DNA of 64,000 nt from Escherichia coli (GTDB lineage Bacteria > Pseudomonadota > Gammaproteobacteria > Enterobacterales > Enterobacteriaceae), in NCBI RefSeq assembly GCF_003334315.1, contig NZ_QOWR01000024.1. One strand, written 5' to 3'. The stretch's first letter is position 1, and the number at the start of each line of letters is the position of its first letter. Made by a program: the position numbers and the translations under genes. Of this stretch, positions 1 to 4,309 are shown one piece after another. A model generated the notes under the pieces. The model saw only the letters and a list, made by a program, of their open reading frames with translations. It was not told the DNA's origin and did no database searches.

Positions 1-110
1 CCGTTGATCTGGAACGCGTCATGACCGCGCGCAAGAAATATTTTACAACATCGGCGGAGAAGCAAAGTGCTAAAGCCGCCAGGGAGAAAAAGCAGGAGGC
101 TGCTGAATGA
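1..110 (+). CDS. casA: CasA/Cse1 (Cascade large subunit), C-terminal fragment truncated by window start
   Basis: Open frame from position 3 to TGA at 108-110 with no internal stop; stop overlaps casB ATG (ATGA); position upstream of cse2 in type I-E operon. Confidence 0.55.
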   Translation, partial: VDLERVMTARKKYFTTSAEKQSAKAAREKKQEAAE

Positions 111-643
111 GTATTGTAAAAGAGGAGCACAAAGCCACGCTGCGCAAATGGCACGAGGAATTGCAGGAGAAACGTGGCGAACGTGCCAGTCTGCGGCGTA
201 GTACGACGGTTAATGATGTTTGTCTGACGGATGGATTTCGCCTGTTTCTGAAGAACAGACAAATAAAGTGGCAGGATGAACCTGAGTGGCGTATCACCGC
301 ACTGGCGCTGATAGCCGCAGTTAGCGCCAATGTTAAAGCTATTGATGAACGGCAGCCTTTTGCCGCGCAGCTGGCGGCGGTAATGTCAAAGGGGCGTTTT
401 ACTCGTCTGTCGGCAGTAAAAACACCGGATGAATTACTGCGCCAGTTACGCCGCGCAGTCAGATTATTAAACGGTTCCGTCAATCTTGACTCTCTGGCAG
501 AGGGGGTCTTCCGTTGGTGCCAGGAGAGCGACGACCTGCTCAATCATCACCGCCGCCAGCAGCGGCCAACCGAATTTATCCGTATCCGCTGGGCGCTGGA
601 ATATTACCAGGCTGGCGACGCCGATAACGAACAAAATCAATAA
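107..643 (+). CDS. casB: CasB/Cse2 (Cascade small subunit), 178 aa
   Basis: ORF immediately upstream of cas7e/cas5e/cas6e/cas1/cas2; size typical of Cse2; synteny-based call. Confidence 0.75.
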   Translation: MSIVKEEHKATLRKWHEELQEKRGERASLRRSTTVNDVCLTDGFRLFLKNRQIKWQDEPEWRITALALIAAVSANVKAIDERQPFAAQLAAVMSKGRFTRLSAVKTPDELLRQLRRAVRLLNGSVNLDSLAEGVFRWCQESDDLLNHHRRQQRPTEFIRIRWALEYYQAGDADNEQNQ

Positions 644-654
644 AGGACTATCTC

Positions 655-1710
655 ATGACAACATTTATTCAGCTTCATTTGTTAACCGCTTACCCTGCTG
701 CCAACCTTAACCGTGATGATACCGGTGCGCCAAAAACTGTGGTGCTGGGTGGAGCAACGCGTCTGCGCGTTTCCTCGCAAAGTCTGAAATGTGCGTGGCG
801 CACTTCTGCACTTTTTGAACAGGCACTGGCGGGCCATATTGGTATTCGCAGTGGGCGTATTGCGCGTGAGGCGGCAACTATCCTGATTGAGAAAGGAATC
901 GAAGAGAAAAAAGCCATCGAATGGGCGGCAAAAATTGCAGATTATCTTGGGAAAGCTAAAAACGACAAAAAACCAAAAGATCCGCTCACTAACGCCGAAA
1001 CTGAACAGTTAGTCCATATCAGCCCGGCAGAATTTGACGCCGTAAAAGTGCTGGCCCATCAGCTTGCAGAAGAAAAGCGCGCGCCAAAAGAGGAAGATCT
1101 CGCGTTGTTACGCAAAGACCGTATGGCGGTAGATATTGCCATGTTTGGTCGTATGCTGGCGAATAAACCCGAGTTTAATGTTGAAGCCGCCTGCCAGGTA
1201 GCGCACGCATTTGGTGTCAGTGAAATGATTGTCGAAGATGATTTTTTCACCGCCGTTGATGATTTGCGCCAGGCTTCTGAAGATGCCGGTGCCGGGCATC
1301 TTGGTGAAACCGGATTCGGTTCTGCACTGTTCTACACCTATATCTGCATTGATAAAGATCTGCTGGTCGAAAACCTTGGCGGTGACGAAGCGTTAGCTAA
1401 TCAGACCATACGTGCCTTTACGGAAGCCGCACTTAAAGTCTCCCCAACCGGCAAACAGAACAGCTTTGCCAGCCGTGCCTACGCCTCCTGGGCGCTGGCA
1501 GAAAAAGGCACCGATCAACCGCGTTCTCTGGCGGCAGCTTTCTATGAACCCATTAATGGCACCCGTCAGTTAGAGGTGGCGGTGCAGCGTATTACAACTC
1601 TTCGCGAAAATATGAATACGGTCTACGAACAGAAGACCGATTACGCAAGTTTTGACGTGATGAACAAACAGGGAAGCATGAAGGACGTGCTGGACTTTAT
1701 CTGCGCGTAA
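655..1710 (+). CDS. casC: CasC/Cas7e (Cascade backbone subunit), 351 aa
   Basis: N-terminus MTTFIQLHLLTAYPAANLNRDD typical of Cas7e; operon position. Confidence 0.85.
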   Translation: MTTFIQLHLLTAYPAANLNRDDTGAPKTVVLGGATRLRVSSQSLKCAWRTSALFEQALAGHIGIRSGRIAREAATILIEKGIEEKKAIEWAAKIADYLGKAKNDKKPKDPLTNAETEQLVHISPAEFDAVKVLAHQLAEEKRAPKEEDLALLRKDRMAVDIAMFGRMLANKPEFNVEAACQVAHAFGVSEMIVEDDFFTAVDDLRQASEDAGAGHLGETGFGSALFYTYICIDKDLLVENLGGDEALANQTIRAFTEAALKVSPTGKQNSFASRAYASWALAEKGTDQPRSLAAAFYEPINGTRQLEVAVQRITTLRENMNTVYEQKTDYASFDVMNKQGSMKDVLDFICA

Positions 1711-1720
1711 GGGGCGGCTT

Positions 1721-2467
1721 ATGAGCCAATATCTGATTTTTCAGCTTCATGGGCCGATGGCGTCCTGGGGTGTCGATGCTCCAGGTGAAGTTCGTCATAC
1801 CCATGAACTTCCTTCGCGCTCAGCATTGCTGGGGCTACTGGCTGCCGGGGTAGGGATTCGGCGTGATGATACCGAACGCTTAAACGCGTTTAATCGCCAC
1901 TATTCACTGGTGGTTTGCGCCAGCCGTAACCCGCGCTGGGCACGGGATTATCACACGGTCCAGATGCCAAAAGAGGTGCGTAAAGCACGTTATTTCAGCC
2001 GTCGCGAAGAGTTGAGCGACCCTGAGCTTTTGAGCGCGATTATCTCCCGGCGCGACTACTACACCGATGCCTGGTGGATGGTGGCGGTGGCAACAACCCC
2101 CGATGCGCCTTACAGCCTCGAACAGTTGCAGGACGGTTTACGCCATCCGGTTTTTCCGCTTTATCTGGGGCGAAAAAGTCATCCGCTGGCGTTACCACTT
2201 GCGCCGTTACTGCTCGAAGGCAACGCGTCTGATGTCTTACGTAACGCATACCAACAGTATCAGGATCGTTTCCGCGAACTGAAAGTCTCACTCCCGAAAC
2301 TTCAGGATGAATGCTGGTGGGAAGGGGAGCACGATGGTTTGGTCGCAAGCAAAATATTACGCCGCCGGGATGTTCCTTTAAATCGTCAGCAGTGGCTGTT
2401 TGGGGAACGCACCATCAATCAGGGGCCGTGGCTCAGCAAGGAGGAACCATGTACCTCTCAAGAATAA
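1721..2467 (+). CDS. casD: CasD/Cas5e, 248 aa
   Basis: N-terminus MSQYLIFQLHGPMASWG resembles Cas5e (K-12 CasD MRSYLILRLAGPMQAWG); operon position. Confidence 0.85.
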   Translation: MSQYLIFQLHGPMASWGVDAPGEVRHTHELPSRSALLGLLAAGVGIRRDDTERLNAFNRHYSLVVCASRNPRWARDYHTVQMPKEVRKARYFSRREELSDPELLSAIISRRDYYTDAWWMVAVATTPDAPYSLEQLQDGLRHPVFPLYLGRKSHPLALPLAPLLLEGNASDVLRNAYQQYQDRFRELKVSLPKLQDECWWEGEHDGLVASKILRRRDVPLNRQQWLFGERTINQGPWLSKEEPCTSQE

Positions 2468-3099
2468 CCTTACATACCGGCCAGCTTTCGCCTGCGCAGT
2501 TGCTGCATCTGGTGGATCGCGGTGAATATGTGATGCATCAGTGGTTGTGGGATCTCTTCCCTGGCGGCAAAGAAAGGCAATTTCTTTATCGTCGGGAAGA
2601 ACTCCAGGGCGCGTTTCGCTTTTTTGTCCTCTCGCAGGAACGCCCGGCAGAAAGTGAAACTTTCACCATCGAATGCCGGTCATTTACGCCCGAGCTGAGT
2701 ACCGGACAACAACTTTGTTTCAACCTGCGGGCGAATCCAACAATCTGTAAAGCGGGCAAGCGCCACGATCTGCTGATGGAGGCGAAACGGCAGGTGAGGG
2801 GACAGGCGGAAGGAAGTGATGTCTGGTTGCATCAACAACAGGCGGCGCTGGACTGGCTGGCAGCGCAGGGGGAAAGAAGTGGTTTTACACTACTGGATAC
2901 CTCGGTTGATGCCTACCGACAACAACAACTCCGGCGGGAAAACTCCTGGCAACTGATCCAGTTCAGTAGTGTGGATTATACGGGGATGCTTACGGTCACC
3001 GATCCTGGGTTATTTCTGCAACGTCTCAGTCAGGGGTATGGCAAAAGCCGGGCGTTCGGTTGTGGTCTGATGCTGATCAAACCTGGAGCAGAGGCGTGA
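2449..3099 (+). CDS. casE: CasE/Cas6e crRNA endoribonuclease, 216 aa
   Basis: Start moved to internal ATG 2449 (MYLSRITLHTG, matches Cas6e N-terminus MYLS...) preceded by AGGAGG at 2438-2443; overlaps casD 3' end. Confidence 0.85.
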   Translation: MYLSRITLHTGQLSPAQLLHLVDRGEYVMHQWLWDLFPGGKERQFLYRREELQGAFRFFVLSQERPAESETFTIECRSFTPELSTGQQLCFNLRANPTICKAGKRHDLLMEAKRQVRGQAEGSDVWLHQQQAALDWLAAQGERSGFTLLDTSVDAYRQQQLRRENSWQLIQFSSVDYTGMLTVTDPGLFLQRLSQGYGKSRAFGCGLMLIKPGAEA

Positions 3100-4019
3100 C
3101 GTTTGTACCGCTGAGCCCGATCCCGTTAAAAGATCGCACCTCCATGATCTTCCTCCAGTACGGTCAAATCGACGTACTGGACGGCGCTTTCGTGCTGATC
3201 GACAAAACCGGGATCCGCACGCACATTCCGGTGGGATCGGTCGCCTGCATTATGCTCGAACCGGGAACGAGAGTTTCCCACGCGGCGGTGCATCTGGCCG
3301 CCACGGTGGGGACGCTACTGGTCTGGGTCGGTGAAGCGGGTGTTCGCGTCTACTCTTCCGGACAACCCGGTGGGGCGCGTGCTGATAAGTTACTCTACCA
3401 GGCAAAGCTGGCTTTAACGGAAGATCTACGCCTGAAGGTGGTGCGCAAAATGTATGAATTACGTTTTCGTGAGCCACCGCCAGCTCGCCGTTCAGTGGAG
3501 CAGTTACGGGGAATTGAGGGATCCCGCGTTCGCCAGACGTATGCATTACTGGCGAAACAATATGGTGTGAAATGGAATGGTCGCAAATACGATCCTAAAG
3601 ACTGGGAAAAAGGCGATGTTGTCAATCGTTGCATCAGTGCTGCCACATCATGCCTGTACGGTATTTCTGAAGCTGCAGTATTAGCTGCGGGATATGCGCC
3701 CGCTATTGGTTTTATCCATAGCGGCAAACCGCTTTCATTTGTTTATGACATAGCCGATATCATTAAATTTGATTTGGTTGTGCCAAAGGCATTTGAAATA
3801 GCAGCGAGGCAACCCGCAGAACCAGATAAAGAAGTCAGGTTGGCCTGTCGCGATATTTTCCGTAGTAGTAAATTAACGGGCAAGTTAATTCCGTTAATTG
3901 AGGAAGTGCTTGCCGCTGGTGAAATTGAACCACCACAACCCGCGCCGGATATGTTACCGCCTGCCATCCCTGAACCTGAAACCTTAGGCGATAGCGGTCA
4001 TCGAGGACGCGGCGGATGA
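3096..4019 (+). CDS. cas1: Cas1 integrase (type I-E), 307 aa, GTG start
   Basis: [27 protein letters not shown]... closely matches K-12 Cas1 (YgbT) N-terminus; GTG at 3096 overlaps casE stop. Confidence 0.9.
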
Positions 4020-4309
4020 GTATGATCGTAGTTGTAACGGAAAATGTTCCTCCACGTTTACGTGGACGGCTCGCTATCTGGCTACTGGAAGTGCGTGCCG
4101 GTGTGTATGTCGGAGATACATCCAAACGTATTCGGGAGATGATCTGGCAGCAAATCTCTCAACTGGCAGGTTGCGGAAATGTAGTGATGGCTTGGGCGAC
4201 CAATACCGAGTCAGGTTTTGAATTTCAGACCTGGGGTGAAAATAGACGTATTCCGGTGGATTTGGATGGGTTGCGTTTGGTTTCTTTTCTTCCTGTTGAT
4301 AATCAATAA
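4016..4309 (+). CDS. cas2: Cas2 (type I-E), 97 aa
   Basis: [34 protein letters not shown]... near-identical to K-12 YgbF/Cas2; ATGA overlap with cas1. Confidence 0.92.

What the first reader, a model, noticed from the sequence alone, without database searches (positions are those of the whole stretch)
1..4309. cas operon is a non-K-12 sequence variant embedded in otherwise K-12-like flanks
casB, casC, casD and casE encode 178, 351, 248 and 216 aa, against 160, 363, 224 and 199 aa for the K-12 proteins as I recall them, and the N-termini diverge. Cas1 and Cas2 are close to K-12 YgbT/YgbF. All reading frames are open with coupled or overlapping junctions, so the system is probably intact. This is consistent with the known existence of two I-E cas variants at the iap-cysH locus in E. 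coli, and suggests exchange of the effector module.
Basis: partly seen in the sequence, partly recalled or inferred. Interest (0 to 1): 0.3.

Follow-up and report, generated by a model that had tools for sequence, protein, structure and literature searches.

The report
Common non-K-12 E. coli CRISPR-Cas variant
The window carries the ordinary, majority form of the E. coli type I-E CRISPR-Cas operon (published as cas-E1 / cas-EO / var. B-8552), so the laboratory strain K-12 is the unusual one, and this difference has already been described in print.

Summary
Window 1-4309 encodes the end of casA, then casB, casC, casD, casE, cas1 and cas2 (178, 351, 248, 216, 307 and 97 aa). All frames are open and the junctions are coupled. 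Against K-12, CasB gives no BLASTP match, CasC/D/E are 27-36% identical, and Cas1/Cas2 are 85/86% identical. From the last full CRISPR repeat onward, the flanks are 99.0-99.5% identical in DNA.

This is the published cas-E1 variant (Almendros 2014; Table 1 of PMC12736100 gives the same gene lengths and near-identical percent identities). It occurs in 2,628 of 5,426 complete E. coli genomes, against 1,123 for the K-12 type.

The "effector-module exchange" reading is only partly right. cas1-cas2 are just 70-73% identical in DNA, with saturated synonymous sites, and the leader and repeat type also differ. The whole cassette differs, up to position 4832 inside the array.

Cas1-Cas2 are 75-99% conserved in 80 other species, whatever Cascade type they accompany. 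In trees, the window's two modules are congruent. K-12's are not: its Cas1-Cas2 and its Cascade have different nearest relatives. Any mosaic therefore lies in K-12's operon, not in the window's.

Verdict: already known, low interest.

The parts
1..110 (+). 3' end of casA (cse1/cas8e), cut by the window edge. Its stop codon overlaps the casB start (ATGA).
   Evidence: Frame 3 translation ends at 108-110. The identical sequence is annotated as a 520-aa casA in strain Combat13F7.
107..643 (+). casB (cse2), 178 aa, cas-E1 variant
   Evidence: ORF. NCBIfam TIGR02548: 99 bits against a cut-off of 28.5. No BLASTP similarity to K-12 CasB.
655..1710 (+). casC (cas7e), 351 aa
   Evidence: ORF. TIGR01869: 439 bits against 178. 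30-32% identical to K-12 CasC.
1721..2467 (+). casD (cas5e), 248 aa
   Evidence: ORF. TIGR01868: 160 bits against 69. 35-36% identical to K-12 CasD.
2449..3099 (+). casE (cas6e), 216 aa, the pre-crRNA endonuclease
   Evidence: ATG at 2449 with an AGGAGG upstream. TIGR01907: 289 bits against 45. 27% identical to K-12 CasE. His30 aligns with the K-12 residue His20, which I recall as catalytic.
3096..4019 (+). cas1e, 307 aa, GTG start
   Evidence: TIGR03638: 381 bits against 216. 85% aa but 70% nt identity to K-12 ygbT. E141, H208 and D221 are invariant in the alignment.
4016..4309 (+). cas2e, 97 aa
   Evidence: TIGR01873: 132 bits against 33. 86% aa and 73% nt identity to K-12 ygbF.
4310..4404 (+). 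CRISPR leader, 95 nt, AT-rich. Only patchily similar to the 105-nt K-12 leader.
   Evidence: Direct comparison of the two leaders.
4405..4921 (+). CRISPR array (the one next to the cas genes): 8 full 29-nt repeats GTGTTCCCCGCGCCAGCGGGGATAAACCG ('type A'), one degenerate terminal repeat (4893-4921), and 8 spacers of 32 nt.
   Evidence: Spacer 4800-4831 matches phages P1, P7 and SJ46 at 100%.
4832..4921 (+). Shared 'anchor': last full repeat, terminal spacer GGCGCACTGGATGCGATGATGGATATCACTTG and degenerate repeat. It is present in both variants, and K-12-like sequence resumes here.
   Evidence: the megablast alignment to K-12 starts at 4832. Described in PMC3903273.
4942..9173 (.). Core-gene flank: iap (-), then cysD, cysN and cysC (+). 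K-12-like, but with raised divergence from iap to cysN.
   Evidence: dS 0.12 for iap and cysN, against 0.02-0.05 for cysC and cysD.

Best explanation
**What it is.** Window 1-4921 is the distal two-thirds of a standard, apparently intact type I-E CRISPR-Cas locus of the cas-E1 variant. Published names for this variant are cas-EO and var. B-8552. It is the majority form in E. coli and is also the type found in E. albertii and Salmonella.

**How it works (inferred from established I-E biology, not shown here).**
- CasE cuts the array transcript inside each 29-nt repeat.
- The crRNAs are held by Cascade (CasA, CasB, CasC, CasD, CasE).
- Cascade finds PAM-flanked protospacers and recruits Cas3.
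- Cas1-Cas2 insert new 32-nt spacers at the leader end of the array.

**How it differs from K-12.** The difference is a whole-cassette difference. It runs from upstream of cas3, through cas2, the leader and nearly the whole array, and ends at the last full repeat (position 4832).

**Why Cas1-Cas2 look similar.** Cas1-Cas2 are 85-86% identical to K-12's because this Cas1-Cas2 lineage is exceptionally conserved at the protein level. It works on one near-invariant repeat sequence. The similarity does not mean the genes were retained from a common E. coli ancestor.
For: **Shown here**
- Gene set, order and coupling.
- All six proteins exceed the NCBIfam type I-E cut-offs.
- Cas1 E141/H208/D221 and a CasE histidine align with their K-12 counterparts.
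- The array has 29-nt repeats and 32-nt spacers.
- The operon is found at 90-100% identity, covering at least 80% of its length, in 2,628 of 5,426 complete E. coli genomes. The K-12 type is found in 1,123.
- Gene lengths and percent identities match Table 1 of PMC12736100.
- The GTG 'type A' repeat goes with cas-EO according to PMC3737337.
- cas1/cas2 are 70/73% identical in DNA, with saturated synonymous sites. Flank genes have dS 0.02-0.12.
- No DNA similarity to K-12 was detected from hok/sokX to cas1.
- K-12 similarity resumes at 4832.
- Cas1/Cas2 are 75-99% / 72-98% identical across 80 species with any Cascade type.
- The identical repeat is used with all three Cascade lineages.
- E1 adaptation and effector trees recover the same clade of E. 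albertii, Salmonella, Klebsiella and Citrobacter, with bootstrap 94-100.
- The locus sits between cysH and iap in those genera.
- DNA identity falls in step with host distance: 92.7% to E. albertii and 76.7% to Salmonella.

**From the literature**
- E1 is the primary set and E2 a later replacement in a minority of strains.
Against: - cas3 and most of casA lie outside the window. Their integrity is known only from sequence-identical relatives.
- One of those relatives has an IS421 upstream of cas3, which could affect expression.
- No expression or activity data exist for this strain. I-E systems of E. coli are generally H-NS-silenced (stated in PMC3903273).
- The strain's clonal frame is K-12-like, and phylogroup A strains mostly carry E2. 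This lineage may therefore have regained E1 rather than kept it.
Confidence: 0.93

Rival explanations
1. One reading: only the effector genes (casA-casE, possibly with cas3) were swapped in E. coli. On this view cas1-cas2, the leader and the array stayed behind as the original K-12-like DNA.
For: Cas1 and Cas2 are 85% and 86% identical to K-12, against about 30% for CasC, CasD and CasE. The GC content of cas1 and cas2 is similar in both variants, while the Cascade genes differ by 5-9 points.
Against: cas1/cas2 DNA identity is 70/73% with saturated synonymous sites, next to flanks at 97-99%. The leader and the repeat type differ. Megablast similarity to K-12 begins only at 4832. Cas1 of Pectobacterium or Oceanospirillum is as close to the window's Cas1 as K-12's is. 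The literature concludes that the whole set was replaced.
Confidence: 0.03
2. The window's lineage, not K-12's, is the recipient. On this view a K-12-like (phylogroup A) strain acquired the E1 cassette from another E. coli lineage. The vehicle would be a homologous-recombination tract reaching from about cysI to cysN.
For: The clonal frame shows 0-1 differences per kb from K-12, but the tract next to the cassette (4832-9000) shows 7-31 per kb. The cysI-cysH side is only 98.9% identical. Group A strains mostly carry E2, with a few E1 exceptions. ST10 contains both variants.
Against: The same pattern arises if K-12's ancestor received the E2-bearing tract. Direction cannot be read from two genomes. 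Similar divergent patches occur elsewhere in the window, so this patch is not unique.
Confidence: 0.3
3. The locus is an intact-looking but silent or decaying relic, with no current immune role.
For: The array is short, with 8 spacers. The one spacer with a phage match faces a non-consensus PAM in the one P1 record examined. E. coli I-E systems are reported to be H-NS-repressed and slow to change. An IS421 sits upstream of cas3 in an identical relative.
Against: All reading frames are open and coupled. Every protein scores far above its family cut-off, and the key residues are kept. Cas1-2 of the same variant from O157:H7 acquired spacers in an experiment.
Confidence: 0.4

Closest known systems
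E. coli cas-E1 (Almendros et al. 2014, mBio, PMC3903273), also called cas-EO (Diez-Villasenor et al. 2013, PMC3737337) and var. B-8552 (PMC12736100)
   Same: Same locus, gene order and gene lengths (537/1056/747/651/924/294 bp). Same percent identities to K-12. Same type-A (GTG) repeat. 95.9% DNA identity to the O55:H7 and O157:H7 operons.
   Different: Nothing of substance. The window's allele is one of 320 genomes at 99% identity or more. It sits in a K-12-like clonal frame, where E2 is the usual variant.
E. coli K-12 type I-E system (cas-E2 / cas-EK; ygcL-ygbF)
   Same: Same subtype, gene order, chromosomal site, 29-nt repeat (one base differs), terminal spacer and degenerate repeat. Cas1/Cas2 are 85/86% identical.
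   Different: Cascade proteins are 24-36% identical, and CasB gives no BLASTP hit. There is no DNA similarity from cas3 to casE. cas1-cas2 are 70-73% identical in DNA. The leader differs. Cascade-gene GC is 50-55% against 43-48%. The published acquisition motif is CWT for this variant and CTT for K-12.
Salmonella enterica, Klebsiella and Citrobacter I-E systems at cysH-iap
   Same: Same effector lineage (CasC 83-87% identical), Cas1 93-96% identical, same repeat and same flanking genes.
   Different: About 77% DNA identity, as expected for different genera.

Membership tests
Type I-E CRISPR-Cas (Cascade) system | Gene set and order cas3-casA-casB-cas7e-cas5e-cas6e-cas1e-cas2e next to an array | tested here: met
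   The casA 3' end through cas2 and the array are in the window. cas3 and full-length casA were seen only in the sequence-identical strain Combat13F7.
Type I-E CRISPR-Cas (Cascade) system | Each protein matches the subtype-specific curated model above its cut-off | tested here: met
   TIGR02548, TIGR01869, TIGR01868, TIGR01907, TIGR03638 and TIGR01873 all score well above their cut-offs.
Type I-E CRISPR-Cas (Cascade) system | 29-nt palindromic repeat with spacers of about 32 nt | tested here: met
   Eight full repeats GTGTTCCCCGCGCCAGCGGGGATAAACCG at 61-nt spacing. Rfam gave no hit at gathering threshold, which is uninformative.
Type I-E CRISPR-Cas (Cascade) system | Catalytic residues retained. 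The residue roles are from my own knowledge: Cas1 E141/H208/D221 and CasE His20 in K-12 numbering. | tested here: met
   The three Cas1 residues are invariant in the alignment. CasE His30 aligns with K-12 His20.
Type I-E CRISPR-Cas (Cascade) system | crRNA-guided interference and spacer acquisition | not testable with these tools
   Only indirect evidence: acquisition was shown for the same variant from O157:H7 in PMC3737337.
E. coli cas-E1 / cas-EO / var. B-8552 variant | Variant-specific gene lengths and about 30% Cascade identity to K-12, with about 85% Cas1/Cas2 identity | tested here: met
   compared with Table 1 of PMC12736100.
E. coli cas-E1 / cas-EO / var. B-8552 variant | High DNA identity to reference E1 operons (O157:H7, O55:H7) | tested here: met
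   95.9% identity over 1-4308 to O55:H7 CB9615 (H11) and two further records.
E. coli cas-E1 / cas-EO / var. B-8552 variant | Type-A repeat and leader-A linked to the cas variant | tested here: inconclusive
   The repeat is type A (GTG, which reads ...AACAC on the other strand). The leader differs from K-12's but was not aligned to a named leader-A reference.
E. coli cas-E1 / cas-EO / var. B-8552 variant | GC content above the E2 genes (published means 53.5% against 45.6%) | tested here: met
   Window casB-casE are 50-54.5% GC, against 43.5-48% in K-12.
E. coli K-12 cas-E2 variant | DNA-level similarity to the K-12 casA-cas2 genes | tested here: not met
   No blastn alignment upstream of cas1, and 70% identity over cas1-cas2. 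The two megablast searches each find only their own variant: no record listed for the window operon matches at K-12-type identity, and none listed for the K-12 operon is below 97%.

The most novel reading that the evidence does not exclude
**The reading.** Across Enterobacterales and other Proteobacteria, a very conserved 'chassis' is kept. It consists of Cas1-Cas2 (75-99% aa identity) plus one near-invariant 29-nt repeat. At least three deeply divergent Cas3/Cascade lineages (27-55% identity to one another) have been exchanged on this chassis. In Enterobacteriaceae the exchange often happens at the same cysH-iap site.

**What it means for the two operons.**
- K-12's textbook operon would itself be a chimera.
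- Its Cascade groups with Citrobacter amalonaticus, Erwinia and Pantoea loci.
- Its Cas1-Cas2 group with Raoultella, Citrobacter portucalensis and Enterobacter loci, which carry a different Cascade.
- The window's E1 operon is the non-mosaic form.

**Status.** Modular shuffling of CRISPR-Cas is known in general. I did not find this specific chimerism of K-12 stated in the papers I read.
Probability: 0.5. Interest if true: 0.3.

Novelty: already known. Interest (0 to 1): 0.1.

Why it matters
The practical point is already published. Nearly all mechanistic work on type I-E comes from K-12, whose Cascade is only about 30% identical to the one most E. coli strains carry, Salmonella included. K-12 findings on PAM preference, regulation or anti-CRISPR sensitivity may therefore not transfer to those strains. 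For genome annotation, this locus needs no special flag. The one modest addition here is a caution about reading Cas1-Cas2 similarity. High Cas1-Cas2 protein identity between I-E operons of this lineage says nothing about recent common ancestry.

Tried and rejected
- **BLASTP of CasB against K-12 CasB.** No significant match. Homology is supported only through the shared NCBIfam model.
- **Rfam scan of 1-6500.** Nothing at gathering threshold.
- **First identity count against Combat13F7.** It gave 6,591 'mismatches'. This was an artefact of a 1-nt indel: megablast shows 100.0% identity over 12 kb.
- **dS for cas genes (Nei-Gojobori).** The value is undefined because sites are saturated. pS above 0.75 is a known behaviour of the method at twofold-degenerate sites, not a signal.
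- **DNA-level search for a recent donor of K-12's cas1-cas2.** The best candidates (L016, L027, L029) are only 72-74% identical in DNA. The module incongruence therefore rests on protein trees with bootstraps of 76-88.
- **Counting genomes with the rpoS deletion.** The ranking puts two-piece matches first, so carriers could not be listed.
- **Two ideas considered and rejected.** One was that the window is strain Combat13F7 itself; that strain has a full-length rpoS. The other was that host-specific constraint explains K-12 Cas1's affinities. Both C. amalonaticus and the E1 clade are Enterobacteriaceae, yet their Cas1 is only 84-86% identical to K-12's.

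
Full report
**What is in the sequence.** Window 1-4309 holds these genes on the + strand:
- the last 35 codons of casA, with its stop at 108-110
- casB, 107-643, 178 aa
- casC/cas7e, 655-1710, 351 aa
- casD/cas5e, 1721-2467, 248 aa
- casE/cas6e, 2449-3099, 216 aa
- cas1e, 3096-4019, GTG start, 307 aa
- cas2e, 4016-4309, 97 aa

The same boundaries are annotated by RefSeq in strain Combat13F7, which matches window 1-12000 at 100.0% identity. The junctions are ATGA, an 11-nt gap, a 10-nt gap, a 19-nt overlap, GTGA and ATGA.

Downstream lie three features:
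- a 95-nt leader, 4310-4404
- an array, 4405-4921, with eight full repeats GTGTTCCCCGCGCCAGCGGGGATAAACCG, eight 32-nt spacers and a degenerate terminal repeat
- iap on the minus strand, followed by cysD, cysN and cysC

**Comparison with K-12.** I fetched NC_000913 2,872,000-2,890,000.

| Protein or gene | Identity to K-12 |
|---|---|
| CasB | no BLASTP hit; 24% in a global alignment |
| CasC | 30-32% aa |
| CasD | 35-36% aa |
| CasE | 27-30% aa |
| Cas1 | 85% aa; 70% nt |
| Cas2 | 86% aa; 73% nt |
| Iap, CysD, CysN, CysC | 99.1-100% aa |

The window is collinear with K-12 from 4832 to 64000 at 99.0-99.5% DNA identity.

Three details need correcting.
- The N-termini are not especially divergent. 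The CasC, CasD and CasE alignments begin at residue 1, and CasE keeps MYLS.
- Cas1/Cas2 are close only as proteins. In DNA the genes are 70% and 73% identical with saturated synonymous sites, whereas flank genes have dS 0.02-0.12.
- The flank is not uniformly K-12-like. Much of the window differs from K-12 by 0-1 sites per kb. Several patches reach 10-31 per kb, and one of them is iap-cysN (4832-9000), directly next to the cassette.

**Extent of the divergent segment.**
- blastn with a 7-nt word finds no similarity to K-12 between the hok/sokX region downstream of cysH and the start of cas1. It finds about 70% identity through cas1, cas2, the leader and the repeats.
- The leaders are only patchily alike. 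The repeats differ at base 2: GTG here and GAG in K-12.
- The terminal spacer GGCGCACTGGATGCGATGATGGATATCACTTG and the degenerate repeat are shared. K-12's last full repeat before that spacer is itself GTG-type.
- The megablast alignment to K-12 starts exactly at 4832.

The unit that differs is therefore the whole cassette, cas3 to nearly the end of the array. It is not the effector genes alone.

**Frequency.** The window operon is found at 90-100% identity, covering at least 80% of its length, in 2,628 of 5,426 complete E. coli genomes. The K-12 casA-cas2 segment is found in 1,123, many of them laboratory derivatives. The 'non-K-12 variant' is the majority form.

**What is already published.**
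- Almendros et al. 2014 (PMC3903273) named the two forms cas-E1 and cas-E2. E1 is the major form and clusters with Salmonella and E. albertii. E2 includes K-12, most group A strains and E. fergusonii.
- They found that each variant goes with its own leader, and that mean GC is 53.5% for E1 against 45.6% for E2.
[quoted passage not shown] They also described the shared degenerate repeat plus spacer as an anchor.
- Diez-Villasenor et al. 2013 linked cas-EO to type-A repeats and leader-A. They showed experimentally that its Cas1-Cas2 accept both CTT and CAT motifs, whereas K-12's use CTT.
- Table 1 of PMC12736100 (2025) lists exactly the gene lengths seen here (537/1056/747/651/924/294 bp) and near-identical percent identities.

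The finding is therefore already known.

**Membership.**
- All six proteins exceed the curated NCBIfam type I-E cut-offs by wide margins.
- Cas1 E141, H208 and D221 are invariant in the alignment with K-12. CasE His30 aligns with K-12 His20. The catalytic roles of these residues come from my own knowledge.
- Per-gene GC is 50-54.5% for casB-casE, against 43.5-48% in K-12.
- DNA identity to the O55:H7 operon (and to two further records listed alongside it) is 95.9%.

**Testing the mosaicism idea.** I scanned one genome per species with a Cas1 alignment and kept 80 loci with 10-kb flanks.
- Cas1 is 75-99% and Cas2 72-98% identical to the window's in every one of them, including Pectobacterium, Dickeya, Marinomonas, Methylophaga, Shewanella, Bordetella and Parasutterella. 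The lower bound reflects the top-80 cut-off.
- Their Cascade proteins fall into separate lineages:
  - E1-like: CasC 72-97% identical to the window.
  - A third type: CasC about 52-60% identical to E1 and about 30% to E2.
  - E2-like: CasC 51-74% identical to K-12 and about 30% to E1.
- At about 82-85% adaptation-module identity to the window, effector identity is either about 0.50 or about 0.27-0.29. One rate difference cannot explain the 85% versus 30% contrast, so the two modules are decoupled on a deep timescale.
- In neighbour-joining bootstraps the window's E1 operon falls in the same clade in both trees. That clade is E. albertii, Escherichia sp., Pseudocitrobacter, Salmonella, Klebsiella, Citrobacter, Phytobacter and Atlantibacter, with support 83-100.
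- K-12's Cas1-Cas2 group with L016, L027 and L029 (bootstrap 88 and 76), loci whose Cascade is the third type. K-12's Cascade groups with L022 (C. amalonaticus), L052 and L074 (bootstrap 87 and 99; a 13-member clade at 100).
- Host constraint does not explain this. C. amalonaticus and the E1 clade are also Enterobacteriaceae, yet their Cas1 is only 84-86% identical to K-12's.
- The signal is protein-level only. K-12 cas1-cas2 are 72-74% identical in DNA to their nearest relatives.

I rate the chimeric origin of K-12's operon at about 0.5. It concerns K-12, not the window.

**Why Cas1-Cas2 are so conserved (inference).** The identical 29-nt repeat is the consensus in loci of all three Cascade lineages. 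The integrase must recognise that repeat and its leader. An unchanged substrate is a plausible source of the constraint. It would also let different Cascade sets use the same arrays.

**History of E1.**
- The cysH-cas-iap-cysD arrangement holds in E. albertii, Salmonella, Klebsiella, Citrobacter, Intestinirhabdus and Phytobacter.
- It also holds for third-type loci (Raoultella, Enterobacter, Pluralibacter, C. portucalensis) and for the E2-like C. amalonaticus locus.
- DNA identity of the window operon is 92.7% to E. albertii and 76.7% to Salmonella. That is compatible with long residence of E1 at this site, as Almendros et al. argued.
- What remains open is whether this particular K-12-like strain kept E1 or regained it through a recombination tract reaching to cysN. 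Two genomes cannot settle the direction.

**Mechanism.** The gene content, family membership, conserved key residues and array architecture are shown. The standard I-E pathway is inferred from established knowledge of the subtype: CasE processing, crRNA-guided Cascade, Cas3 recruitment, and Cas1-Cas2 integration at the leader. A CWT/AWG motif preference is inferred from PMC3737337.

Expression is unknown, and three points bear on it.
- E. coli I-E is usually H-NS-silenced.
- cas3 and most of casA lie outside the window.
- An IS421 lies upstream of cas3 in an identical relative.

**Verdict.** This is a correct observation of an ordinary, published feature. Novelty: already known. Interest: 0.1.

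Noticed in passing
window 14972-15646 (rpoS; deletion junction at about 15350-15361): rpoS encodes about 212 aa instead of 330. There is an in-frame 354-bp deletion between two 12-bp direct repeats GCGTTGCTGGAC, which removes the central part of the sigma factor. The otherwise identical strain Combat13F7 has full-length rpoS, and the ten best-matching genomes listed (all that could be inspected) span 555 nt where the window has 201. This is probably a strain-specific loss-of-function allele.
   Followed up: partly
window 4799-4831 (spacer 7 of the array): This spacer, together with the last G of the preceding repeat, matches phages P1, P7 and SJ46 at 100% over 33 nt, within a 'LexA regulated function' gene. 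In P1 record MH422554 the adjacent motif reads CTG, not the AWG consensus.
   Followed up: partly
window 4832-64000 compared with K-12: Divergence from K-12 is strongly patchy. Long stretches have 0-1 differences per kb. Blocks with 10-31 per kb lie at about 5-9 kb, 16-24 kb, 33-35 kb, 46-49 kb and 53-58 kb. This is the usual signature of recombination tracts on a shared clonal frame.
   Followed up: partly
L001 (K-12) compared with L016, L027, L029 and L022, L052, L074: K-12's own operon looks chimeric. Its Cas1-Cas2 are closest (91-94% for the concatenated pair; Cas1 alone 93-95%) to loci carrying a different Cascade lineage. Its Cascade is closest (66% over CasC+CasD+CasE) to C. amalonaticus, whose Cas1-Cas2 are only 84% identical to K-12's.
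   Followed up: partly
L004-L031 (cysH-iap loci of Enterobacteriaceae): The same chromosomal site, cysH-[cas]-iap-cysD, holds three deeply different Cascade lineages in different genera. All of them use the same 29-nt repeat.
   Followed up: partly
L006 (Pseudocitrobacter vendiensis): Its E1 operon is 93.3% identical in DNA to the window's, although the flanking Iap is only 80.5% identical. Its array mixes GTG-type and GAG-type repeats. This suggests transfer of the cassette between genera.
   Followed up: no
L003 and L076: Contigs labelled as Bacillota and Collinsella MAGs carry cas genes 94-100% identical in protein to the window's E. coli operon. These are probably mis-binned Escherichia contigs.
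   Followed up: no
L002 3400-4512 (Combat13F7, upstream of the window): An IS421 transposase gene lies between hok and cas3 in a strain otherwise identical to the window over 12 kb. It may alter the cas3 promoter region.
   Followed up: no
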